From the NCBI GenBank assembly GCA_964514305.1, contig CAZEQD010000003.1, positions 16,449 to 80,448 on the forward strand: a stretch of 64,000 bases of DNA. Reading direction: 5' to 3'. Shown one piece after another: positions 47,503 to 57,281 of this stretch (its first letter is position 1; every line of letters begins with the position of its first letter). The notes under the pieces are model-generated. The model saw only the letters and a list, made by a program, of their open reading frames with translations. It searched no databases and was not told the DNA's origin. The position numbers and the translations under genes were made by a program. This stretch comes from an uncultured Eubacteriales bacterium. Its GTDB lineage: Bacteria; Acidobacteriota; Aminicenantia; Aminicenantales; Aminicenantaceae.

Positions 47503-48801
47503 TCAGTCTAAGAGGTTTCTTTCCTTAGCTTCTTTTATCAGGTCCGGCCTAAATTTAGGGTGAGCAATACTGATCAGAGCTTTTGTTCTTTCCTGGAGGT
47601 TTTTTCCATGAAGGTAAGCTACCCCATACTCAGTGACTACATACTTAACATCGGCCCGGGTAGTAACCACCCCGGCCCCTTTTTTCAGAAAGGGAACGAT
47701 GCGTGATATTTCACCATTTTTAGCCGTAGAAGGAAGAGCAATAATTGGTTTACCTCCCTTGGATTGAGCTGCGCCCCGAATGAAATCGACCTGTCCCCCA
47801 AACCCGCTGTAAATGTAAGTACCAATAGAGTCCGAACAAACCTGACCAGTTATATCAACCTCAATAGCTGAATTGATGGCTACCATATTATCATTGCGAG
47901 AGACATTGAAAGGATGGTTAGTGTAATCTACAGGATGTCCTTCAAAGATAGGATTATTATCAGCAAATTCATAGAGCCTATCGGAGCCTAAAATAAAAGT
48001 CAAAATTACCTTATAAGGATGAAAGGTTTTTTTGGCTCCAGTAATGGTTCCCTCTTCAATGGCTTCCATGACTCCATCGGAGACCATCTCGGTGTGGATT
48101 CCTAAATCCCGACGACCCTTCAAAGCAGAGAGAACAGCATCCGGTATTCCCCCAATGCCTAACTGCAAGGTTGAGCCATCCTCGATTAAATCAGCAATAA
48201 AGTTTCCTATCTTTCTTTCTACTTCACTAAAAGGTTTTTTCTCAAGCTGAGGTAAAGGTTCAGAAACTTCAACAATTTTATGGACTCTCGACACATGAAT
48301 AAAAGAATCTCCCAGAATACGCGGCATCTTTTCATTTACCTGAGCGATGACAATTTTGGCTGTTTCAGCAGCAGCTTTGGAAGCTAAGACTTCGGCTCCA
48401 AAGCTCATAAACCCATGTTCATCAGGAGGAGATAGATGGACCATGGCTACATCTATGGGCATCTGACCAGAATAGAATAAATTTGGTATTTGATGGAGGA
48501 AAATAGGCACATAGCCAGCTCTTCCTTCATTGATGGCTTTACGGTCAGCCGGGCCGACAAAAAGAGAATTATGGCGGAAATGGCCTTCCATTTCAGGCTT
48601 AGAAAGAGGATCTTCGCCCATTAAAAGAACGTGAACCAGCTCTACCCCTTCCAGTTCATCCTTCCTCGAGGCTAAGGCCTTTAATAATACATAAGGAGTA
48701 GCAGCATTGCCGCTGATATAAACTCGGCTACGGCTTTTAATTTCAGCTACCGCTTCTTCAGCTGAGACCAACTTTTTTTTGTAATCATCAACACATGACA
48801 T
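47503..48801 (-). CDS. Acetyl-CoA hydrolase/transferase (4-hydroxybutyrate CoA-transferase-like)
   Basis: TLQLGIGGIPDAV, LGIHTEM (catalytic Glu), INSAIEVD.TGQV, SGFGGQVDF, ADVKYVVTEYG. Confidence 0.92.
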   Translation of the reverse strand: MSCVDDYKKKLVSAEEAVAEIKSRSRVYISGNAATPYVLLKALASRKDELEGVELVHVLLMGEDPLSKPEMEGHFRHNSLFVGPADRKAINEGRAGYVPIFLHQIPNLFYSGQMPIDVAMVHLSPPDEHGFMSFGAEVLASKAAAETAKIVIAQVNEKMPRILGDSFIHVSRVHKIVEVSEPLPQLEKKPFSEVERKIGNFIADLIEDGSTLQLGIGGIPDAVLSALKGRRDLGIHTEMVSDGVMEAIEEGTITGAKKTFHPYKVILTFILGSDRLYEFADNNPIFEGHPVDYTNHPFNVSRNDNMVAINSAIEVDITGQVCSDSIGTYIYSGFGGQVDFIRGAAQSKGGKPIIALPSTAKNGEISRIVPFLKKGAGVVTTRADVKYVVTEYGVAYLHGKNLQERTKALISIAHPKFRPDLIKEAKERNLLD

Positions 48802-48854: not shown

Positions 48855-50381
<1,527 letters not shown>

Positions 50382-50395
50382 TCATAGCTTAGAGC

Positions 50396-51229
50396 TTAAG
50401 AAAAATTTTTCTTCTCCCAAAAAGATAAGGATTGAATTTCATCGTCAAAATAGGTCTTCCTTCGGGCAAAAAGCTCTTCCCAATTGACCAGATGTCCATC
50501 AAATTCGGGCCCATCAACACAGGCAAATTTTGTCTTGCCTCCAACTGTTACCCGGCAAGCTCCGCACATCCCAGTGCCGTCAACCATAATAGGATTGAGA
50601 CTGACCATGGTTTTTACGCCCAGGGGCCGGGTGGCCTCAGCACAGGTATACATCAGATAAGTACAACCGATAGAGATCACCCGATCTATCCTGGCCTTCC
50701 TCTTCAGGATATCCTTGAGGACGGCAGGAACATAATCTTTACAATTATAATAATTGTCCCTTGAAGAAACATAAAATTCATCGCTAATTTCTTTAAACCT
50801 TTCCTCCCAATAGAGAAGATAACTGGCTTTTATATCCAAAAGAGTAATAATTTTATTTTTTGCTTTCTTGAGAGCACGAGCAATAGGATATATAGCTCCA
50901 ATCCCGTAACACCCACCAGCACAAATCACAGTGCCGAATTTAGCTATTTCAGACGGTTTGCCCAAAGGACCGACAAAAACCGGAACTTCATCTCCTTCTT
51001 TGAGCAAAGAAAGTTTGTGAGTAGAAGTTCCTACAACCAGAAAAACAGCTGTAATAGAGCCTCTCTCGCTATCCCAATCGGCAATGGTTAAAGGGATTCT
51101 CTCGCCTAATTCATCAGGCATAATAATGACAAATTGGCCCGGCTTACATTTTTTAGCAATTTCAGGCGCCTCGACCTCAATTAAGTGAATATTGGGGACC
51201 AAACGCTCTCTTTTTAAGACTTTAGCCAT
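50396..51229 (-). CDS. nfnA: NfnA / SudB-like FAD-[2Fe-2S] subunit with altered NAD-binding motifs
   Basis: PGQFVI, ERIPLTIAD, GPLGKP, DGTGMCGACRV, CVDGPEF. Start placed at ATG 51229 (TAATG coupling with the upstream gene). Confidence 0.82.
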   Translation of the reverse strand: MAKVLKRERLVPNIHLIEVEAPEIAKKCKPGQFVIIMPDELGERIPLTIADWDSERGSITAVFLVVGTSTHKLSLLKEGDEVPVFVGPLGKPSEIAKFGTVICAGGCYGIGAIYPIARALKKAKNKIITLLDIKASYLLYWEERFKEISDEFYVSSRDNYYNCKDYVPAVLKDILKRKARIDRVISIGCTYLMYTCAEATRPLGVKTMVSLNPIMVDGTGMCGACRVTVGGKTKFACVDGPEFDGHLVNWEELFARRKTYFDDEIQSLSFWEKKNFS

Positions 51230-53787
51230 TATTTTCCTCTTATAATTTTGACAGCTATGGGGCCTAAACAAAGCTGATCTTTTCCCGAAGAAAACAAAGC
51301 TAGAGAGGAATACTCTGAATCTTGTTCAGGTAAAAAACTTGCCCTTAAAATCCCTTGAGGCAGGGCCTCGGAAATTTTAGTAATTCCCTTAAACTGGCCG
51401 CTGGAGGATTTGACAATTATAATCTCCCCCTCTCTTAAATTCAATTGCTGGGCATCTTGAGGAGAGATCTCAACCCATCTTGAGTCTCTAATCCTGCTTA
51501 AACCTTTCACTTCCTGACTGAGAATAAGATTGCGGTAATGATCTGAATTATATCTGAGAAGAAGAAGATAAGGGTACTTTTTTCCTAATTTTGCTTTTGA
51601 GGGAAGAGTATCTGTCAGCATAAATTTATTCTGGTCTTTGCTTGCCTGGGAAGAAATAAAAACATCCTTTCTTTTGGCTAGCTGAGAGTAAGAAGCTTTA
51701 GCCAAAGCTGGAATTGACTGCTGTATTTCTTTCATGATCGAAGAAGCTCTTTTATAGCCAAAATCTTTACTTCCCATTTTTTGAGCAATTTTAGATATTA
51801 TCCACCAATCTGGTTGAGCCTCTCCTAAAGTATTAATAACTTTGTTCAATTTCTGAATTCTGCCTTCTGTGTTGACCAAGGTCCCCTCTATTTCTAAAAA
51901 AGTGGCCGCAGGGAGGAGGGCATCAGCCTGGCTGGCTTTTTCACTTAAAAACGAATCCTGAATTACTAGAAACTCAGGCCTCCTCTTAAAGTGAGGGATA
52001 CCCCCTACTGCGTATATGGCTTTTATTTTAGAATCAGACAATTGAGTAAAAATCGTTTGCTCGTCAGCAAAAGAAGAAGAAAAATGATTCTCAATTTCCA
52101 TCATTCCCCGTTGATCACAATCCAAACTCAAAGGAATAAGTCTGCCACCAGTTAACAGAGTTAAGTTCCAGAGAGCTTCAAGGCTCTGAGACCCGCCAGC
52201 ACCCAGGGACAAGCCTGGGCCAAAAATAAAGAGCGGAGAATCTTCATGAAGAAGGTGAGCCGTTTCTTTCAGAGTCTCTTCCCTTAGGCCTACAATCTCC
52301 TTGACCCGAGCAACCTCAAATTTGTCCAGGAAATTTCGGAAAGAATCAAAGTTTTTAATCTCGGATAGTGATTTGAGATGGACCTCTTCTAAGAAATATT
52401 TGGAAATAAAGCTAAGGAGATAGAATTCCGAACCGGGCTTCAGCTTAAGGAAAATTGAAGAGAAACGACTCCAAAAAAACTCTACAGGCGAAGCTATAAC
52501 AAGTTTGGCTCCTTTCTTAACAGCTTTGAGAATTGCCAGCCAGATTATAGGATAAGAAGTGACTATATCTTCATTAATTATAAATATTAATTTAGCTTTA
52601 GAAATTGCTTCTAAGCTGAAATTATAATCTCCAGCCGGCCCATTCTTCTCGATTATCTTTTTATAAAGTTCTAAAGGAGATTGAATCCTTACCCTCATCA
52701 TATTTCTAGTTTTTAAAACATTATGAGCGAATTTATATAAAAGATAGCCATCTTCAAGAGTTATTTCTGAGGAAGGAATAACTCCAATTTCATCACCTTT
52801 GTAAGCTCTTAACTTTTTAGCTACAAAATCCAAAGCTTCATCCCAGCTGACTTCTTCCAATTTTTTCTTCTTCCTAATCAAAGGCTTTAAAATCCTTTTA
52901 GGGCTATAGGCTAACTCCCTAAGAGTAAAGCGGCCTTTGACGCAGGCCTGCCCATGATTAACCTTTCCTTCGGCCAAAGGTTTTGAGTTCAATATCCTGC
53001 CTTTTATCAAATCTACTTTCATTTCACAGCCCAACGGACAAAGGGAACAGATAGTTGTAACTGACTCATCAGGCAGAAGTTCATATTTAATAGCTCTTTC
53101 TGTTAAGGCTCCAGTAGGGCAGATATCAACACAGGCCCCACAAAATTGGCAACCCGATTCTAAAAGTGGTCGGTCGAGAACCGTTCCAACCACTGCCCTT
53201 GAGCCTCTAAAAACAAAGGAAAGAGCCGAAGCCCCCCTCAGTTCTTGACAGACTCTGACACATCTTCCGCACAAGATACAAAGATTATAATTGCGGTCAA
53301 AAAAAGGATCCTCTCTCTTGACTTCATAGTTACGGTAAAGGGCTGGAAAATTTACTCGATTGATTTTCAAAGCTTGAACTACATCCTGAAGGTCACAGCG
53401 GCCGTTATTAGGGCAAAAAACACAACCTGTAACCTCACTCACTTTTCGGATAGTGGACTTATATTCGTCGCAATTCTCTTTTTCGCTGCAGATTAGGCAA
53501 GCATGGGGATGCTCGGAAAGAATAAGTTCTAAAATTTGTCTTCTAATCTTCTGCAGTTGAGGAGTATCTGTTTTTATTTCCATGCCCTCTTCAACATAGG
53601 TTCCGCAGGAAGGAGGGAATCCTCTTCTTCCCTTAATCTCCACAATGCACAGGCGGCAGCCGCTGAAAGGCTCCAAGTAAGGGTGATCACAGAGGGAAGG
53701 GATAAAAATATTGTTCTCTCTGGCTACCTCGAGGATAGTCTTTTTACCTTCTACTTCTAAGAGCTGGCCATTAATGATAATCTTCAT
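51229..53787 (-). CDS. HydA/NuoG-like multi-Fe-S subunit with molybdopterin-oxidoreductase fold, no catalytic Cys/Sec and no H-cluster
   Basis: [2Fe-2S] C..P.L....GCRLC..SC; HPHAC..C; 2x[4Fe-4S] CILCGRCVRVC and CQFCGACVDIC; CSLCPLGC...CVKG. The FdhF ligand segment reads NMMRVRIQS instead of N.D.CAR(C/U)H. Confidence 0.8.
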   Translation of the reverse strand: MKIIINGQLLEVEGKKTILEVARENNIFIPSLCDHPYLEPFSGCRLCIVEIKGRRGFPPSCGTYVEEGMEIKTDTPQLQKIRRQILELILSEHPHACLICSEKENCDEYKSTIRKVSEVTGCVFCPNNGRCDLQDVVQALKINRVNFPALYRNYEVKREDPFFDRNYNLCILCGRCVRVCQELRGASALSFVFRGSRAVVGTVLDRPLLESGCQFCGACVDICPTGALTERAIKYELLPDESVTTICSLCPLGCEMKVDLIKGRILNSKPLAEGKVNHGQACVKGRFTLRELAYSPKRILKPLIRKKKKLEEVSWDEALDFVAKKLRAYKGDEIGVIPSSEITLEDGYLLYKFAHNVLKTRNMMRVRIQSPLELYKKIIEKNGPAGDYNFSLEAISKAKLIFIINEDIVTSYPIIWLAILKAVKKGAKLVIASPVEFFWSRFSSIFLKLKPGSEFYLLSFISKYFLEEVHLKSLSEIKNFDSFRNFLDKFEVARVKEIVGLREETLKETAHLLHEDSPLFIFGPGLSLGAGGSQSLEALWNLTLLTGGRLIPLSLDCDQRGMMEIENHFSSSFADEQTIFTQLSDSKIKAIYAVGGIPHFKRRPEFLVIQDSFLSEKASQADALLPAATFLEIEGTLVNTEGRIQKLNKVINTLGEAQPDWWIISKIAQKMGSKDFGYKRASSIMKEIQQSIPALAKASYSQLAKRKDVFISSQASKDQNKFMLTDTLPSKAKLGKKYPYLLLLRYNSDHYRNLILSQEVKGLSRIRDSRWVEISPQDAQQLNLREGEIIIVKSSSGQFKGITKISEALPQGILRASFLPEQDSEYSSLALFSSGKDQLCLGPIAVKIIRGK

Positions 53788-53788
53788 T

Positions 53789-55714
53789 TTACCGCTTTTT
53801 TCTCAAAGATTTTTTAAGTAGCCTATCTCTTTTCTGGCCTGTATATTTAGAAACAGCTTTTACTTTAGGGGGACAAACATCAAGACAGGCCCCGCATTTT
53901 ATACATAAATTCTGATCGATAACATGAACTTTTTTCCTTTCTCCAGAAATGGCTCCAGCTGGACAGCTCTTCAAACAAAGAAGGCAGCCGACACATTTTT
54001 CTGGTTCAATATAATAAACAATCAAATCTTTGCAGACTAAAGCTGGGCAGGCTTTATTTTTAATATGAGCTTCATATTCCTGGCGGAAATAACGAAGCGT
54101 GGTTAAAACGGGATTTGGGGCGGTTTGGCCTAAGCCACAAAGGGAAGCAGCCTTCACTGTTTTAGCCAGATTTTCGAGTATCTCCAGGTCCCCCTCTTCC
54201 CCTTTACCCTGAGTAATTCTGGTTAAAATCTCTACCATCTGTCTGGTTCCCACCCGACAGGGAACACACTTACCGCAGGATTCTTCTTGAGTAAAATTTA
54301 GAAAATAACGAGCTACATCAACCATACAGGTTTCTTCATCCATGACAATCATTCCCCCAGAACCCATGATTGAGCCAGCCTTAGTTAAAGTATCATAATC
54401 TACAGTCAAATTAAGCATTGAGGCAGGAATACATCCTCCAGAAGGACCTCCTGTCTGGACAGCTTTAAATTTCTTATCATCCTTTATCCCGCCTCCTATA
54501 TCATAAATAATTTCTTTAAGAGTAATGCCCATCGGAACTTCAACTAAACCTGTATTTCTTATTTTACCCACTAAAGAAAAAATCTTGGTTCCCTTGCTCA
54601 TTTGGCTCCCAATCTGAGAATACCATTCAGCACCCTTATTAATGATAAGAGGCACGTTAGCCCAGGTCTCAACATTGTTGATATTGGTGGGCTTACCCCA
54701 TAAACCTGATTGAGCTGGAAAAGGAGGTCTCTGCCGGGGAAAAGCCCGACGTCCTTCAATTGAAGCTATCAAAGAAGTTTCTTCTCCGGAGACAAAAGCC
54801 CCGGCTCCCTCGACCACATGAATATCAAAGCTAAATTCCGATCCCATTATTGACTTTCCCAAAAGTCCAGCTGCCTTTGCCTGTTCCAGAGCTATTGTTA
54901 CATGTTTAACAGCGAGGGGATATTCCATCCTGACATAAATGTAGCCTTCATTGGCTCCAATGGCATAAGCTCCGATAATCATACCTTCAATTACACTGTG
55001 AGGGTTTCCTTCCAGAAGACTGCGGTCCATATAAGCTCCAGGGTCTCCCTCGTCAGCATTACAAATTATGTATTTCACCTCTGCCTTAGAGGCCCGACAG
55101 ATCTCCCATTTGCGTCCGGTTGGAAAACCAGCGCCACCCCGCCCTCTTAAACCTGAGGCCTTAACTTCTTCAATTACCTCTTCGGAAGTCATATTAAAAA
55201 GAATTTTGGCTAAGGCCTGGTAACCATCAATAACAATATAATCTTCGATATTGGTAGGGTCGACTCTCAAGTTATTTTCTGTCAAGAGTCTTATTTGTTT
55301 TTGATAAAAAGGTATATCTTTCTGCTTGATCACCTTCTTTTTGGTTTTGGTATCTTCGTAGACAAGAGAAGGAATAATCTTATCTTTTAAAATCGTCTCC
55401 TCAATTATTTGAGGGACATCATCAGCTTTAAGGTTCTTATAAAAAATTTCACCTGGATAAATAATTATATTAGGTTCCAGCTGACAAAAACCATGGCAAC
55501 CTGTTATCTTGAGACCGACCCTCCCTCCAAGGCCTCTTTTCTTAATCTCAGCTTTTAAAGCCTCAATCACTGGTAAAGATCCGCTGGCTTGGCCGCAGGT
55601 CCCAGAGGAGACGACAATTGTTTTCTCATAGATAGGACGAGAGGCAATAATCTTCTTCTTCCATTCTAAAAGTTTTTCAGGTTGAGTTATCTTTTCTTTA
55701 AACATGTCTGTCAT
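53789..55714 (-). CDS. nuoF: HydB/NuoF-like NADH-binding FMN subunit, long (bifurcating-type) form
   Basis: SGLRGRGGAGFPTG, CNADEGDPGAYMDR, GEETS, ESCGKCVPCR, LCGLG; N-terminal thioredoxin-like [2Fe-2S] domain and C-terminal 2x[4Fe-4S]. Confidence 0.9.
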   Translation of the reverse strand: MTDMFKEKITQPEKLLEWKKKIIASRPIYEKTIVVSSGTCGQASGSLPVIEALKAEIKKRGLGGRVGLKITGCHGFCQLEPNIIIYPGEIFYKNLKADDVPQIIEETILKDKIIPSLVYEDTKTKKKVIKQKDIPFYQKQIRLLTENNLRVDPTNIEDYIVIDGYQALAKILFNMTSEEVIEEVKASGLRGRGGAGFPTGRKWEICRASKAEVKYIICNADEGDPGAYMDRSLLEGNPHSVIEGMIIGAYAIGANEGYIYVRMEYPLAVKHVTIALEQAKAAGLLGKSIMGSEFSFDIHVVEGAGAFVSGEETSLIASIEGRRAFPRQRPPFPAQSGLWGKPTNINNVETWANVPLIINKGAEWYSQIGSQMSKGTKIFSLVGKIRNTGLVEVPMGITLKEIIYDIGGGIKDDKKFKAVQTGGPSGGCIPASMLNLTVDYDTLTKAGSIMGSGGMIVMDEETCMVDVARYFLNFTQEESCGKCVPCRVGTRQMVEILTRITQGKGEEGDLEILENLAKTVKAASLCGLGQTAPNPVLTTLRYFRQEYEAHIKNKACPALVCKDLIVYYIEPEKCVGCLLCLKSCPAGAISGERKKVHVIDQNLCIKCGACLDVCPPKVKAVSKYTGQKRDRLLKKSLRKKR

Positions 55715-56152
55715 TTATTTGTACTCGCTTAGTATAGAATCCACTTTTTTCAAGGTAGTATAGGAATAATATTTACCATCAACTACTACTACCGGACCAA
55801 TAGCACAGCATCCTAAACAGTTAACTGTTTCCAGGGTAAATTTTCGATCGGGGGTTGTTTGGCCAACCTTGATATTTAGTTTGCGAGCAAAATCATCAGC
55901 AATCTTATCTCCGCCTCTAACATGACAAGCAGTGCCCAGACAGACTGTAATTAAATGTTGGCCTCTTGGTTCTAAAGTAAAAGCCTTGTAAAAAGTCAGA
56001 ACTCCAAATATCTCACTTTCTGAAATCTTTAAATAGTCGGATATCCTGGAGATAGCTTCAGCTGGAATATAACCATATTTATGCTGGACCTGATGAAGAA
56101 TATGAATAAGATTTCTCTGTTGGGGCTTAAACTGTCTTAATATTTGCTCCAT
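55715..56152 (-). CDS. nuoE: HydC/NuoE-like [2Fe-2S] subunit
   Basis: TFYKAF, VCLGTACHVRG, VNCLGCCAIGP. Confidence 0.92.
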   Translation of the reverse strand: MEQILRQFKPQQRNLIHILHQVQHKYGYIPAEAISRISDYLKISESEIFGVLTFYKAFTLEPRGQHLITVCLGTACHVRGGDKIADDFARKLNIKVGQTTPDRKFTLETVNCLGCCAIGPVVVVDGKYYSYTTLKKVDSILSEYK

Positions 56153-56168: not shown

Positions 56169-57281
56169 TCAAACTAAAGAAAATTCTTGATATTTTAATC
56201 CAAACCTTTCAGCAAAAGTTTTTCTGACAATATTCCCATGATAAACATACAATCCTCTGACCAAGGTTCTATCACCTTTTAAGGTCTCATCCAACCCCTT
56301 TTCTCCTATCTTCAGCAAATAAGGAGTCACCATATTAGACAAAACTTTGGTTGAAGTCCGGCTTACAGCCGAGGTAATATTGGGAACACAATAATGAATA
56401 ACGCCTTCTTCAACAAAAGTGGGCTGTTCAAGAGTAGTTAAACGACTAGTCTCAATACACCCCCCCTGATCTATGGCCAGATCAATAATTATTGATCCTT
56501 TTTTCATGCTCTTGACCATGTCCTTGGTGATCATGATTGGCGCTCTCTCTCCAGGCCTGAGAACAGCTCCAACTAGAATGTCTGCAATTTTGACCATACG
56601 CGCTAAGTTGTAATTGCTGGCAATAAGAGTTATCAGACGGCCAGAAGTCATCTCCTCCAGCTCTCTCAGCCTTTCCATATCCCGACCTAAAGCAATGGTA
56701 TGAGCTCCAGCCCCAAGCAAGGCCTTAATAGCACTGCGGGCTAAGACCCCACTACCGACAATGATTGCTGTCGCTGGAGGCACAGTTACAACTCCTCCCA
56801 TTATCACCCCTTTTCCACCTTGACTTGTCTGAAGATAATGGCCGGAAATAAAAAGGCACATCTGTCCAGCAATCTCGCTTAAACTCTCAATAAAAGGCAG
56901 GACACCATTATCCCTCTGAATTATTTCATAGCCAATAATGGTTACTTCTTTCCTAAGAAGTTCTTCGATTAAGCTTTTTCGAGCAACAGCCAAATGCTGA
57001 AAGCCAAATAAAATCTGGCCTTTTTTTATCAGGCCACATTCTTCCTTACTAAGAGGAGAAATATTAAGGACAACATCTGAACGACCAAAAACTTCTTCTT
57101 TAGTAAAAACGATTTTAGCTCCAAGAGAAGCATATTCTTCATTAGAATAGCCTGATTTCAGACCTGCTCCAGCTTGAATATAGACAGTATGTCCTTTTTC
57201 AACCAAAAGAGAGACACTGCTTGGAGTTAAACTAACCCGGTTTTCTATTTTTCCACTTTCATTGATAACACCCACACTCAT
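56169..57281 (-). CDS. ald: Divergent alanine dehydrogenase/PntA-fold protein
   Basis: ENRVSLTP, GAG..SG, HLA, DLAIDQGGC.ET and GVIHYCVPN are present, but KVKEP reads NISPL, GGGVVG reads GSGVLA and IDLN reads LGRD. The symbol denotes homology; the function is doubtful. Confidence 0.65.
   Translation of the reverse strand: MSVGVINESGKIENRVSLTPSSVSLLVEKGHTVYIQAGAGLKSGYSNEEYASLGAKIVFTKEEVFGRSDVVLNISPLSKEECGLIKKGQILFGFQHLAVARKSLIEELLRKEVTIIGYEIIQRDNGVLPFIESLSEIAGQMCLFISGHYLQTSQGGKGVIMGGVVTVPPATAIIVGSGVLARSAIKALLGAGAHTIALGRDMERLRELEEMTSGRLITLIASNYNLARMVKIADILVGAVLRPGERAPIMITKDMVKSMKKGSIIIDLAIDQGGCIETSRLTTLEQPTFVEEGVIHYCVPNITSAVSRTSTKVLSNMVTPYLLKIGEKGLDETLKGDRTLVRGLYVYHGNIVRKTFAERFGLKYQEFSLV

What the first reader, a model, noticed from the sequence alone, without database searches (positions are those of the whole stretch)
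50396..51229. NfnA with all three NAD-binding-domain motifs remodelled and extra cysteines
Seen: the FAD-binding motifs (ERIPLTIAD, GPLGKP) and [2Fe-2S] ligands (DGTGMCGACRV...CVDGP) are intact. The motifs I recall as conserved in NfnA/PyrK are changed: GGGxG to AGGCYG, TDDGSYG to SRDNYYNC, IGPxxMM to IGCTYLM, and G-A-R to D-I-K. Four or five new Cys lie in this domain. Inference: loss of NAD(H) binding, or gain of a new metal/Fe-S or thiol site that receives electrons from the neighbouring complex.
Basis: partly seen in the sequence, partly recalled or inferred. Interest (0 to 1): 0.65.

Follow-up and report, generated by a model that had tools for sequence, protein, structure and literature searches.

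The report
NfnA subunit with rebuilt NAD pocket
A small flavin and iron-sulfur subunit of a transhydrogenase-like enzyme has had its NAD pocket rebuilt around a conserved cysteine pair, probably because it is wired into a second electron-bifurcating enzyme and no longer uses NAD itself.

Summary
The gene at 50396-51229 (-) is real and intact. It is an NfnA/NfnS-type protein (PDB 5jca_S, E 5.8e-89). Its FAD and Asp(Cys)3 [2Fe-2S] motifs are kept.

This is not drift. The changes are fixed in 120 of 120 close homologues. A wider clade shares G107C and P189C, always together (34 with both, 0 with one), plus G132D/E.

Only these two Cys define the clade. C163 is Ser in the sister subclade. C103 and C196 are also common in ordinary NfnA. 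A four-Cys Fe-S site is therefore not supported.

The variant is tied to a Bfu-type NuoEFG-like module. That module lies upstream in 7 of 8 variant loci against 1 of 45 canonical loci. Nine of 10 long variant proteins scanned are fused to NuoG-like proteins. The genome also holds a canonical fused NfnAB.

Best reading (0.55): the subunit no longer uses free NAD(H), and its FAD passes electrons to the NuoG-like Fe-S chain.

The scan has noted this operon, and this remodelled NfnA, on other DNA before. I found no paper describing it.

The parts
50396..51229 (-). NfnA/NfnS-like small subunit (277 aa, P0001) with a remodelled NAD-binding domain
   Evidence: NCBIfam NF004862 scores 365.3 bits against a cut-off of 220. 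PDB 5jca_S has E 5.8e-89.
51077..51103 (-). FAD-contact strand ERIPLTIAD (residues 43-51), intact
   Evidence: E43, R44 and P46 are kept in 36 of 36 variant rows. The ERxPxT motif is described in PMC6405883, section 8.
50954..50971 (-). GPLGKP (residues 87-92), the second FAD-domain motif, intact
   Evidence: G87, P88 and G90 are kept in 36 of 36 variant rows.
50903..50920 (-). Glycine loop AGGCYG (residues 104-109). The canonical form is GGGxG. It holds clade-defining C107 and aromatic Y108.
   Evidence: Position 107 is C in 36 of 36 variant rows and G in all 145 canonical rows, which were defined by G107 and P189. Position 108 is Y or F in 35 of 36 variant rows.
50828..50836 (-). D132-I-K134 at the end of strand beta-2. 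The canonical form is G-A-R.
   Evidence: Position 132 is D or E in 36 of 36 variant rows and G in 135 of 145 canonical rows.
50741..50764 (-). SRDNYYNC (residues 156-163). The canonical form is T-D-D-G-S-x-G. It holds R157 and the subclade-specific C163.
   Evidence: Position 157 is D in 130 of 145 canonical rows and R or K in 24 of 36 variant rows. C163 is 120 of 120 in the close set but Ser in 116 of 120 of the sister subclade.
50651..50671 (-). IGCTYLM (residues 187-193). The canonical form is (I/V)GPxxMM. It holds clade-defining C189 and aromatic Y191.
   Evidence: Position 189 is C in 36 of 36 variant rows and P in all 145 canonical rows by definition. C107 and C189 never occur singly.
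50507..50581 (-). Asp(Cys)3 [2Fe-2S] motif DGTGMCGACRV...CVDGP (residues 217-241), intact
   Evidence: Pfam PF10418 has E 2.1e-13. D217, C222, C225 and C237 are kept in 36 of 36 variant rows.
48855..50372 (-). NfnB/NfnL (GltD-like) large subunit, canonical. It begins 23 nt after the NfnA-like stop.
   Evidence: PDB 4ylf_B has E 3.8e-163 with residues 41-495 aligned without large gaps, and Y-R-R is kept. The Y-R-R residues are named in a passage of bioRxiv 10.1101/717884. Pfam finds Fer4_20 and Pyr_redox_2.
51229..53787 (-). NuoG/BfuA-like Fe-S scaffold (852 aa) with a molybdopterin-oxidoreductase-like domain. Its stop overlaps the NfnA-like start.
   Evidence: Pfam finds Fer2_4, NADH-G_4Fe-4S_3, Fer4_Nqo3, Molybdop_Fe4S4, Molybdopterin and Molydop_binding. 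22 Cys columns are kept in at least 18 of 19 partner sequences. Scores are below the NuoG and Fdh-alpha cut-offs.
53789..55714 (-). Bfu-type NuoF/BfuB-like subunit (641 aa): FMN/NAD(H) site, an N-terminal thioredoxin-like [2Fe-2S] domain and C-terminal 2x[4Fe-4S]
   Evidence: Pfam. The best PDB matches are full-length B subunits of bifurcating enzymes: 7t2r_B (E 3e-250), 9bov_B (E 1e-233) and 9n5u_B.
55715..56152 (-). NuoE/BfuC-like [2Fe-2S] subunit
   Evidence: Pfam PF01257 has E 3.4e-51. NCBIfam gives NuoE and HoxE families.

Best explanation
P0001 is the small (NfnA/NfnS-type) subunit of an uncharacterised five-subunit redox complex. The complex is BfuC-like, BfuB-like, a BfuA-like scaffold with a dead formate-dehydrogenase-like domain, this NfnS' subunit, and a canonical NfnB/NfnL.

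The subunit keeps its FAD (a-FAD) and its Asp(Cys)3 [2Fe-2S] cluster. It can therefore still take electrons from the NADP(H)-linked FAD of NfnL. These cofactor motifs are shown by sequence.

Its pyridine-nucleotide cleft has been rebuilt in one old, conserved lineage. The changes are G107C with P189C, G132D/E, D157R/K, aromatic residues at 108 and 191, and loss of P112. This is also shown.

The following steps are inferred:
- The cleft no longer turns over free NAD(H).
- It has become the face through which a-FAD exchanges electrons with the Fe-S chain of the BfuA-like subunit.
- The most likely contact is the [4Fe-4S] cluster of the molybdopterin-type domain. That cluster is kept in all 19 partners. 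The NfnS' domain is fused behind that domain in other lineages.
- NAD(H) is handled at the FMN of the BfuB-like subunit.

Residues 107 and 189 follow neighbouring strands (beta-1 and beta-4). Residues 132 and 157 also follow neighbouring strands (beta-2 and beta-3). This comes from recalled fold topology. The paired changes are therefore read as filling or closing the pocket.
For: 1. The motif changes are confirmed against three solved NfnA/NfnS chains.

2. The changes are fixed.
- In the 120 listed homologues (76-100% identical, query included): C107, C163, C189, D132, R157 and D158 are each 120 of 120, K134 is 119 of 120, and C196 is 117 of 120.
- In the sister subclade: C107, C189, D132, K134, R157 and D158 are each 120 of 120.

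3. C107 and C189 co-occur perfectly.
- Of the 150 cluster representatives, 23 have both, 117 have neither, 0 have one, and 10 are gapped.
- Of the 80 genome loci, 11 have both, 68 have neither, 0 have one, and 1 is gapped.
- D or E at 132 is present in all 36 variant rows, against G in 135 of 145 canonical rows.

4. Divergence is domain-specific.
- Window against canonical identity is 0.48 in the FAD domain, 0.34 in the NAD domain and 0.63 in the Fe-S/C-terminal part.
- Canonical against canonical identity is 0.45, 0.45 and 0.61.
- 15 of the 20 most clade-discriminating positions lie in residues 96-210.

5. The variant is linked to the partner subunit.
- Among the 53 loci with at least 4.4 kb upstream, 7 of 8 variant loci have NuoF/NuoG-like genes upstream, against 1 of 45 canonical loci. 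Fisher p = 4e-7, but related genomes are not independent.
- I scanned 10 of the 23 variant representatives (the long ones). Nine carry NuoG-type domains N-terminal to the NfnA-like domain.
- L021 and L031 encode such fusions.

6. Variants form one clade when the motif columns are left out. 34 of 36 group together, with SH-like support 97 on 210 rows and SH-aLRT 96 on 85 rows.

7. An NAD(H) site exists elsewhere in the operon. The NuoF-like subunit matches full-length bifurcating B subunits.

8. The genome has a separate canonical fused NfnAB with GGGVG, GAR, TDDGT and GPAVMM.

9. There is a precedent. P. furiosus NfnII-S has an obstructed, altered NAD site and no NAD-dependent activity (passages in PMC8097209 section 12 and PMC6405883 section 8).

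10. In Csac NfnABC the cluster branch ending in the pterin-domain cluster (A5) is called a likely non-functional remnant (passage in PMC11829005). Here that cluster is kept in 19 of 19 partners.
Against: - No structure, docking or assay was possible, so loss of NAD(H) binding is inferred from motifs alone.
- The loop still has G105, G106 and G109. D158 and K164 are kept in most variants.
- An acidic residue after beta-2 is, from general knowledge (recalled), typical of NAD-ribose binding. G132D/E could therefore mean changed binding and not lost binding.
- The strong conservation of the new residues shows a function but does not say which.
- One variant locus (L007) has no Bfu genes within 9 kb upstream. 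Its genome's best NuoG-like match lies about 1.67 Mb away.
- One canonical NfnAB (L037) sits beside NuoEFG-like genes.
- In NfnSL the [2Fe-2S]/a-FAD branch is the high-potential branch (PMC6405883 section 8). Why such electrons should enter a Bfu core is not explained.
- The strand-neighbour argument for residues 107/189 and 132/157 rests on recalled fold topology, not on coordinates.
Confidence: 0.55

Rival explanations
1. The pocket still binds a pyridine nucleotide, with altered geometry or specificity (NADH in a new pose, or NADP(H)). The complex would then have two or three nucleotide sites.
For: - The domain is under strong purifying selection.
- G105, G106, G109, D158 and K164 are largely kept.
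- D or E at 132 after beta-2 is a classical NAD-ribose ligand position in Rossmann-type folds (recalled general knowledge).
- D157 changed to R or K in 24 of 36 variants. That could bind a 2'-phosphate.
Against: - G107 and P189 are never singly replaced by Cys in any of the 219 rows with both columns filled.
- The 'AP' of the GxGxAP loop is lost. Position 112 is P in 79 of 145 canonical rows and in 2 of 36 variant rows.
- Bulky aromatic residues appear at 108 and 191.
- A basic 157 together with an acidic 132 looks more like an internal pair than a phosphate site (inference).
- The operon already has an NAD(H) site in the BfuB-like subunit and an NADP(H) site with Y-R-R in the NfnB-like subunit.
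- The tight link to NuoG-like partners, fusions included, is not explained by a specificity switch.
Confidence: 0.2
2. C107 and C189 form a redox-active dithiol/disulfide, or a cysteinyl link to the flavin. They would sit in the former nicotinamide pocket and serve as a new catalytic or potential-tuning site beside a-FAD.
For: - The two Cys always occur together: 34 with both and 0 with one.
- They are 240 of 240 in the two Aminicenantes-type subclades.
- They follow strands that are neighbours in FNR-type folds, so they could lie within bonding distance (recalled topology, not measured).
Against:
- All variants may stem from a single origin. The AU test does not reject one clade (p = 0.096). 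Co-occurrence may therefore be one inherited event.
- Cys may simply be a small residue that packs in a closed pocket.
- No thiol-substrate genes stand out in the operon.
Confidence: 0.13
3. The new Cys residues (C103, C107, C163, C189, C196) bind an extra Fe-S cluster or metal ion in the NAD-binding domain.
For: - There are five Cys in residues 96-210.
- In the closest 120 homologues, C107, C163 and C189 are 120 of 120, C196 is 117 of 120 and C103 is 115 of 120.
- Three of them lie in loops at the C-terminal edge of the sheet.
Against: - In the sister subclade, position 163 is Ser in 116 of 120, 103 is Leu in 120 of 120, and 196 is Ser in 77 of 120.
- In the wider clade, 163 is mostly I, L or V.
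- C103 occurs in 73 of 145 canonical rows and C196 in 24 of 145.
- No conserved extra Cys is seen in the C-terminal part of 19 NuoG-like partners that could complete a 2+2 site.
- The NfnB-like N-terminal extension has no Cys.
Confidence: 0.1
4. The domain is decaying. The changes would be drift in a redundant paralogue.
For: The genome has a second, canonical fused NfnAB.
Against: - The frame is intact and translationally coupled.
- The new residues are invariant in 240 homologues from two subclades.
- 26 of 30 relatives searched have a best match of 52-79% identity.
- The FAD and Fe-S motifs are kept in 36 of 36 variant rows.
Confidence: 0.02

Closest known systems
NfnI small subunit (NfnS/NfnA, formerly SudB) of Pyrococcus furiosus (PDB 5jca_S) and NfnA of Thermotoga maritima (4ylf_A/4yry)
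   Same: - Full-length homology: E 5.8e-89 and 1.6e-70.
- The same ERxPxT and GPxG FAD motifs and the same DGTGMCGxCR...CVDGP Asp(Cys)3 [2Fe-2S] motif.
- Encoded directly before a canonical NfnB/NfnL.
   Different: - All four NAD-cleft segments are changed.
- There is a clade-defining C107/C189 pair and D/E132.
- It is encoded behind, and in other lineages fused to, a NuoG/BfuA-like subunit.
- NfnI uses NADH at this subunit (PMC6405883 section 8).
NfnII/Xfn small subunit of P. furiosus (PDB 5vj7_B)
   Same: It is an NfnS-type subunit whose NAD site is altered or obstructed. [quoted passage not shown]
   Different: - It is a more distant match (E 6.5e-51 against 5.8e-89 for NfnI-S).
- Its changes are different: GAYTG in the loop, GP kept, and the TDDGS region replaced by a longer insert (alignment).
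- It has no Cys pair.
- I did not examine its gene context.
Nfn-Bfu / NfnABC / StnABC transhydrogenases (Csac 9bov, T. sibiricus 9n5u, Sporomusa ovata 8oh5)
   Same: - A Bfu-type B and C core plus a NuoG-like A subunit with a dead pterin domain, joined to an NfnL/GltD-like NADP(H) module.
- The window's BfuB-like subunit matches 9bov_B (E 1e-233) and 9n5u_B.
- Its BfuA-like N-terminus matches 9bov_A and 9n5u_A.
   Different: - There the GltD-like domain is inserted into the A subunit and there is no NfnS/PyrK-like part (PMC11829005 passages).
- Here NfnL is a separate canonical subunit, and an NfnS-type flavoprotein with a rebuilt pocket sits between it and the A subunit.
PyrK, the electron-transfer subunit of dihydroorotate dehydrogenase B (1ep1_B)
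   Same: The same fold family: an FNR-like module plus a C-terminal [2Fe-2S] domain (E 7.2e-14; PMC8097209 passages).
   Different: - Scores are far below the PyrK equivalog cut-offs (91.6 against 224).
- There is no PyrD neighbour.
- The genome has its own PyrK-like gene on contig C20.

Membership tests
NfnA/NfnS (sulfide/dihydroorotate dehydrogenase-like FAD/NAD-binding protein, NF004862) | Whole-protein profile score above the curated cut-off | tested here: met
   NF004862 scores 365.3 bits against a cut-off of 220, with residues 1-274 aligned to profile positions 1-274 of 281.
NfnA/NfnS | FAD-binding strand ERxPxT and GPxG of the FNR-like barrel | tested here: met
   ERIPLT at residues 43-48 and GPLG at 87-90. 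They are invariant in 36 of 36 variant rows. The motif is described in PMC6405883, section 8.
NfnA/NfnS | Asp(Cys)3 [2Fe-2S] motif DGTGMCGxCRx10CV | tested here: met
   Residues 217-238. PF10418 has E 2.1e-13. The ligands are kept in 36 of 36 variant rows.
NfnA/NfnS | Adjacent NfnB/NfnL partner with two [4Fe-4S] motifs, FAD and an NADP(H) site | tested here: met
   The partner gene is at 48855-50372. PDB 4ylf_B has E 3.8e-163 and Y-R-R is kept. A partner was detected next to 72 of the 80 related loci.
NfnA/NfnS | Canonical NAD-cleft segments (GGGxGxAP, GAR, TDDGSxG, GPxxMM) | tested here: not met
   All four segments are changed. Position 107 is C instead of G, 189 is C instead of P, 132 is D instead of G, and 157 is R instead of D.
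NfnA/NfnS | NADH oxidation / NAD+ reduction at the small subunit | not testable with these tools
   This needs purified protein.
NfnII/Xfn-type small subunit | Closest similarity to NfnII-S and its pattern of changes | tested here: not met
   5vj7_B has E 6.5e-51, against 5.8e-89 for NfnI-S. NfnII-S has different motifs: GAYTG, GP kept, and a longer insert.
PyrK (DHOD-B electron-transfer subunit) | Equivalog score above the cut-off, and a PyrD partner | tested here: not met
   The best PyrK equivalog scores 91.6 bits against a cut-off of 224. The neighbours are NuoG-like and NfnB-like.
Bfu (HydABC-type) bifurcating complex, for the operon | B subunit with an FMN/NADH domain, an N-terminal thioredoxin-like [2Fe-2S] domain and C-terminal 2x[4Fe-4S]; C subunit with a [2Fe-2S] cluster | tested here: met
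   Pfam domains. There are full-length matches to the B subunits of 7t2r, 9bov, 7q4v, 8oh5 and 9n5u. The definition comes from PMC9304861, section 5.
Bfu complex, for the operon | NfnS'/NfnL physically part of the Bfu complex | tested here: inconclusive
   Support comes from gene overlap, conserved adjacency and NuoG-NfnA fusions. No protein-level evidence is available.

The most novel reading that the evidence does not exclude
The invariant C107/C189 pair sits on the flavin in the former nicotinamide pocket and is chemically active. It would act as a dithiol/disulfide or a cysteinyl-flavin link. This would turn an NfnS-type subunit into a new kind of flavin-thiol relay that wires an NfnSL-type bifurcating FAD to a Bfu-type bifurcating FMN/Fe-S core. 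The result would be one enzyme with two different bifurcation sites in series.
Probability: 0.15. Interest if true: 0.8.

Novelty: new variant of a known kind. Interest (0 to 1): 0.6.

Why it matters
NfnSL and BfuABC are treated in the papers I could read as two separate, unrelated families of electron-bifurcating enzymes. [quoted passage not shown]

Here a whole lineage of NfnS subunits has given up the canonical NAD cleft, and it has done so only where it is encoded next to, or fused with, a Bfu-type A subunit. The lineage was found in Aminicenantes, Phycisphaerae, Desulfobacterota, Thorarchaeota and Methanothrix loci.

The finding offers three things:
- A sequence signature (C107, C189, D/E132) that separates ordinary Nfn transhydrogenases from subunits of the hybrid complex in genome annotation.
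- A concrete site to mutate.
- A testable case of how a nucleotide pocket is converted into an inter-subunit electron-transfer face.

It also suggests that the cluster branch regarded as a remnant in Csac NfnABC may be the working connection in this family.

Tried and rejected
- Four-Cys Fe-S site: rejected on conservation.
- A 2+2 inter-subunit cluster with the NuoG-like C-terminal domain: no conserved Cys was found there in 19 partners.
- Drift or pseudogene: rejected.
- NfnII/Xfn identity: rejected.
- Independent double origin of the Cys pair, which would have been strong evidence of coupling. L015 and L039 fall outside the main clade. However, the AU test on 41 rows does not reject one clade (p = 0.096). 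The same test on 85 rows did not finish in three tries.
- ESM Atlas: it only listed NfnA-type clusters and holds no model.
- Pfam does not detect NAD_binding_1 or FAD_binding_6 in P0001. I give this no weight, because these models are also found in only part of ordinary NfnA clusters.

Literature:
- Searches found no paper describing a BfuABC plus NfnSL/NfnAB operon or this NfnA variant.
- Of PMC9304861 I read passages and section 5 parts 1-2, not part 3. Its supplementary tables are closed and may list such operons under another name.
- Of PMC6405883 I read passages and section 8 part 1.
- Of PMC8097209, PMC13689815, PMC11829005, 10.1101/717884 and PMC5736913 I read passages only.
- Of PMC12018979, PMC10482914 and PMC7483475 I saw only the search listing.
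- Demmer 2015 and Nguyen 2017 are not held. What I say about them comes from the reviews.
- The formate-dehydrogenase Sec/Cys-His motif, the FNR-family loop motifs and the strand order are recalled, not taken from any call.
Full report
**Observation**

The minus-strand ORF 50396-51229 encodes 277 residues. Its ATG shares one base with the TAA of the upstream NuoG-like gene (TAATG). AGAGGA lies a few bases upstream. The next gene starts 23 nt after its stop.

NCBIfam places the protein in NF004862, 'sulfide/dihydroorotate dehydrogenase-like FAD/NAD-binding protein'. The score is 365.3 bits against a cut-off of 220.

The best solved relatives are:
- the small subunit of P. furiosus NfnI (5jca_S, E 5.8e-89)
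- T. maritima NfnA (4ylf_A, E 1.6e-70)
- P. furiosus NfnII-S (5vj7_B, E 6.5e-51)

- GGGVG becomes GGCYG.
- GFR/GAR becomes DIK.
- T(N/D)DGSxGMKG becomes SRDNYYNCKD.
- VGPxxMM becomes IGCTYLM.

ERIPLTIAD, GPLGKP and DGTGMCGACRV...CVDGP are unchanged.

**Is it drift?**

No. In the 120 best homologues (76-100% identical, query included, several named Aminicenantes or Zixibacteria by their sources), conservation is as follows:
- C107, C163, C189, D132, R157 and D158: each 120 of 120
- K134: 119 of 120
- C196: 117 of 120
- C103: 115 of 120

A sister subclade was reached with the L006 protein as query (120 proteins, 82-92% identical to it). It keeps C107, C189, D132, K134, R157 and D158 in 120 of 120. 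But it has Ser at 163 (116 of 120), Leu at 103 (120 of 120) and Ser at 196 (77 of 120).

In the order of the window's genome, 26 of 30 relatives have a best match of 52-79% identity. Thirteen of them also have a second match of 42-48% identity. I did not inspect motifs in those matches.

**The wider clade**

I looked at the 150 best cluster representatives, out of 7608 hits at E <= 0.001:
- 23 have both C107 and C189.
- 117 have neither.
- None has only one.
- 10 are gapped at one of the two columns.

Among 80 loci from species-representative genomes, the counts are 11, 68, 0 and 1.

All 36 variant rows have D or E at 132, where canonical rows have G in 135 of 145. Position 108 is Y or F in 35 of 36. 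Position 157 is R or K in 24 of 36, where canonical rows have D in 130 of 145.

C103 occurs in 73 of 145 canonical rows and C196 in 24 of 145. They are therefore not new.

A further 29 of 210 family rows have other degenerate NAD loops. Erosion of this site is not unique in the family.

**Where the divergence lies**

| Comparison | FAD domain | NAD domain | Fe-S/C-terminal part |
|---|---|---|---|
| Window vs 145 canonical rows | 0.48 | 0.34 | 0.63 |
| Canonical vs canonical | 0.45 | 0.45 | 0.61 |

Of the 20 positions that best separate variant from canonical rows, 15 lie in residues 96-210. The top five are 189, 107, 132, 157 and 191. The FAD motifs and [2Fe-2S] ligands are invariant in 36 of 36 variant rows.

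**Context**

The operon on the minus strand reads as follows:
- an AlaDH/PNT-like gene
- a NuoE-like gene
- a 641-aa NuoF-like gene with an extra N-terminal [2Fe-2S] domain and C-terminal 2x[4Fe-4S]
- an 852-aa NuoG-like gene with a molybdopterin-oxidoreductase-like domain
- P0001
- a 505-aa NfnB-like gene
- an acetyl-CoA hydrolase/transferase gene

The NuoF-like protein matches, over its full length, the B subunits of solved bifurcating Bfu enzymes: 7t2r_B (E 3e-250), 9bov_B (E 1e-233), plus 7q4v_B, 8oh5_B and 9n5u_B.

The NfnB-like protein is canonical. It matches 4ylf_B at E 3.8e-163. Both [4Fe-4S] motifs and the Y-R-R residues are kept. A preprint passage names Y-R-R as the NADP-phosphate ligands.

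The NuoG-like segment that would hold the Sec/Cys-His of formate dehydrogenases reads NMMRVRIQS. That motif is recalled from memory.

**Association with the partner**

Among the 53 loci with at least 4.4 kb upstream, 7 of 8 variant loci have NuoF/NuoG-like genes upstream on the same strand. Only 1 of 45 canonical loci does. Fisher p = 4e-7, though related genomes are not independent.

Three variant loci were left out for short flanks:
- L006 and L024 have NuoG-like genes upstream.
- L015 has a NuoF-like gene downstream on the other strand.

There are two exceptions:
- L007 is a variant with no Bfu genes within 9 kb. Its genome's best NuoG-like match is about 1.67 Mb away.
- L037 is a canonical NfnAB next to NuoEFG-like genes.

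I scanned 10 of the 23 variant representatives, the long ones. Nine carry NuoG-type domains N-terminal to the NfnA-like domain. L021 and L031 encode 834- and 824-aa fusions of this kind.

The window's own genome also holds a canonical fused NfnAB (754 aa; GGGVG, GAR, TDDGT, GPAVMM) on another contig, and a PyrK-like gene.

**Phylogeny**

With the four motif regions removed, 34 of 36 variant rows form one side of a branch. Support is FastTree SH-like 97 on 210 rows and IQ-TREE SH-aLRT 96 on 85 rows.

L015 and L039 fall next to other degenerate sequences. An AU test on 41 rows does not reject a single clade of all variants (p = 0.096). The perfect co-occurrence of the two Cys may therefore reflect a single origin.

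**The partner subunit**

I aligned 19 NuoG-like partners: the window's, 9 from loci and 9 fusions. All keep the [2Fe-2S] cluster, the His-type cluster, two ferredoxin-type [4Fe-4S] clusters and the [4Fe-4S] of the molybdopterin-type domain (C247, C250, C254, C282 in the window's numbering). An extra CxxCx5C lies in a 25-residue insertion in 18 of 19. No Cys is conserved further downstream.

In Csac NfnABC the branch ending in the corresponding cluster (A5) is described as a likely non-functional remnant, because the pterin site is incomplete (PMC11829005, passage). In this family that cluster is always kept. The NfnS' domain is attached behind the pterin-type domain, which is sometimes truncated.

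**How it most likely works**

Shown:
- An NfnS-type subunit with intact FAD and [2Fe-2S] motifs.
- A rebuilt and conserved nucleotide cleft.
- A canonical NfnL partner.
- A Bfu-type core with its own NAD(H) site.
- Gene fusion to the Bfu A subunit in other lineages.

Inferred:
- The cleft no longer serves free NAD(H).
- a-FAD passes electrons to or from the BfuA-like Fe-S chain, probably through the pterin-domain cluster.
- NADP(H) is handled at NfnL and NAD(H) at the BfuB-like subunit.
- Ferredoxin binds at the NfnL and/or BfuB-like clusters.

Residues 107 and 189 follow neighbouring strands beta-1 and beta-4. Residues 132 and 157 follow neighbouring strands beta-2 and beta-3. This strand order is recalled for FNR-type domains. 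I read the paired changes as closing the pocket.

The precedent is NfnII-S, whose NAD site is obstructed and whose enzyme lacks NAD-dependent activity (PMC8097209 section 12; PMC6405883 section 8; passages).

What remains unexplained is the energetics. In NfnSL the [2Fe-2S]/a-FAD branch is the high-potential one, and why that branch should feed a Bfu core is open.

**Rivals**

- Altered but retained nucleotide binding (0.20)
- A chemically active Cys pair (0.13)
- An extra Fe-S or metal site (0.10)
- Drift (0.02)

**Comparison with what is known**

By sequence the protein is an NfnA/NfnS family member, but it fails the family's NAD-cleft feature. It is not the NfnII type and it is not PyrK.

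The operon resembles Nfn-Bfu (NfnABC/Stn). In those enzymes, however, the GltD-like domain is inserted into the A subunit and there is no NfnS-type part.

Six literature searches found no description of the hybrid or of this variant. Supplements were closed.

Earlier notes of this scan describe the same operon type on other DNA (e1-4695384, e1-1532983, e1-1485806, e1-3596944). One first-reader note describes the same remodelled NfnA in another genome (e1-5098313). Notes that call the NfnAB pair there 'canonical' or 'complete' do not fit what I see here for the small subunit.

**Verdict**

This is a real, conserved and functionally meaningful variant of a known subunit. Its signature (C107, C189, D/E132) marks membership of an undescribed Bfu-Nfn hybrid complex. 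The loss of NAD(H) use and the role of the Cys pair are inferences that need a structure or an assay.

Noticed in passing
window 53395-53487 (-), residues about 101-131 of the NuoG-like protein: There is a 25-residue Cys-rich insertion in the His-cluster motif. It gives C97-x2-C100-x5-C106 followed by C122-x2-C125-x5-C131-x-LQ. It is kept in 18 of 19 partner sequences and is absent from FdsA 6tg9_A. In Csac NfnA (9bov_A), T. sibiricus NfnA (9n5u_A) and Stn (8oh5_C) the GltD-like domain is inserted at this same place. It could be an extra cluster or the docking point for NfnL.
   Followed up: partly
window 56169-57281 and 47503-48801; L004, L005, L008, L047: The AlaDH/PNT-like gene and the acetyl-CoA hydrolase/transferase gene flank the operon in the Aminicenantes loci as well: L005 and L008 have both, L004 has the transferase. 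In L047 (Kryptoniota) both follow directly after a canonical NfnAB pair. The pairing with Nfn genes therefore recurs in two different contexts.
   Followed up: no
L018:4170-7289: In a Phycisphaerales genome the NuoF-like subunit is fused to a second GltD/NfnB-like domain (1039 aa). This comes in addition to the short NuoG-like, variant NfnA-like and NfnB-like genes.
   Followed up: no
L007:8814-11333; G031:C1:29450-30742: One Aminicenantes genome has the variant NfnA'-NfnB pair without Bfu genes within 9 kb. The upstream 448-aa ORF has no Pfam match. The genome's best NuoG-like match lies in a 1309-aa open frame about 1.67 Mb away.
   Followed up: partly
window 50253-50372 (-), residues 1-40 of the NfnB-like protein: The NfnB-like subunit has a basic N-terminal extension of about 40 residues that is absent from T. 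maritima NfnB. The alignment starts at residue 41. It holds no Cys.
   Followed up: no
representatives P0127, P0133, P0150, P0162 and others: 29 of 210 NfnA-family rows have other, non-Cys degenerate NAD loops. Some group with L015 and L039. The NAD site of this family has been eroded several times.
   Followed up: no
L037: A Dehalococcoidia locus has two NuoE/NuoF sets and a NuoG-like gene directly upstream of an NfnAB pair with canonical NAD motifs. It is the only such case among the 45 canonical loci with enough flank.
   Followed up: no
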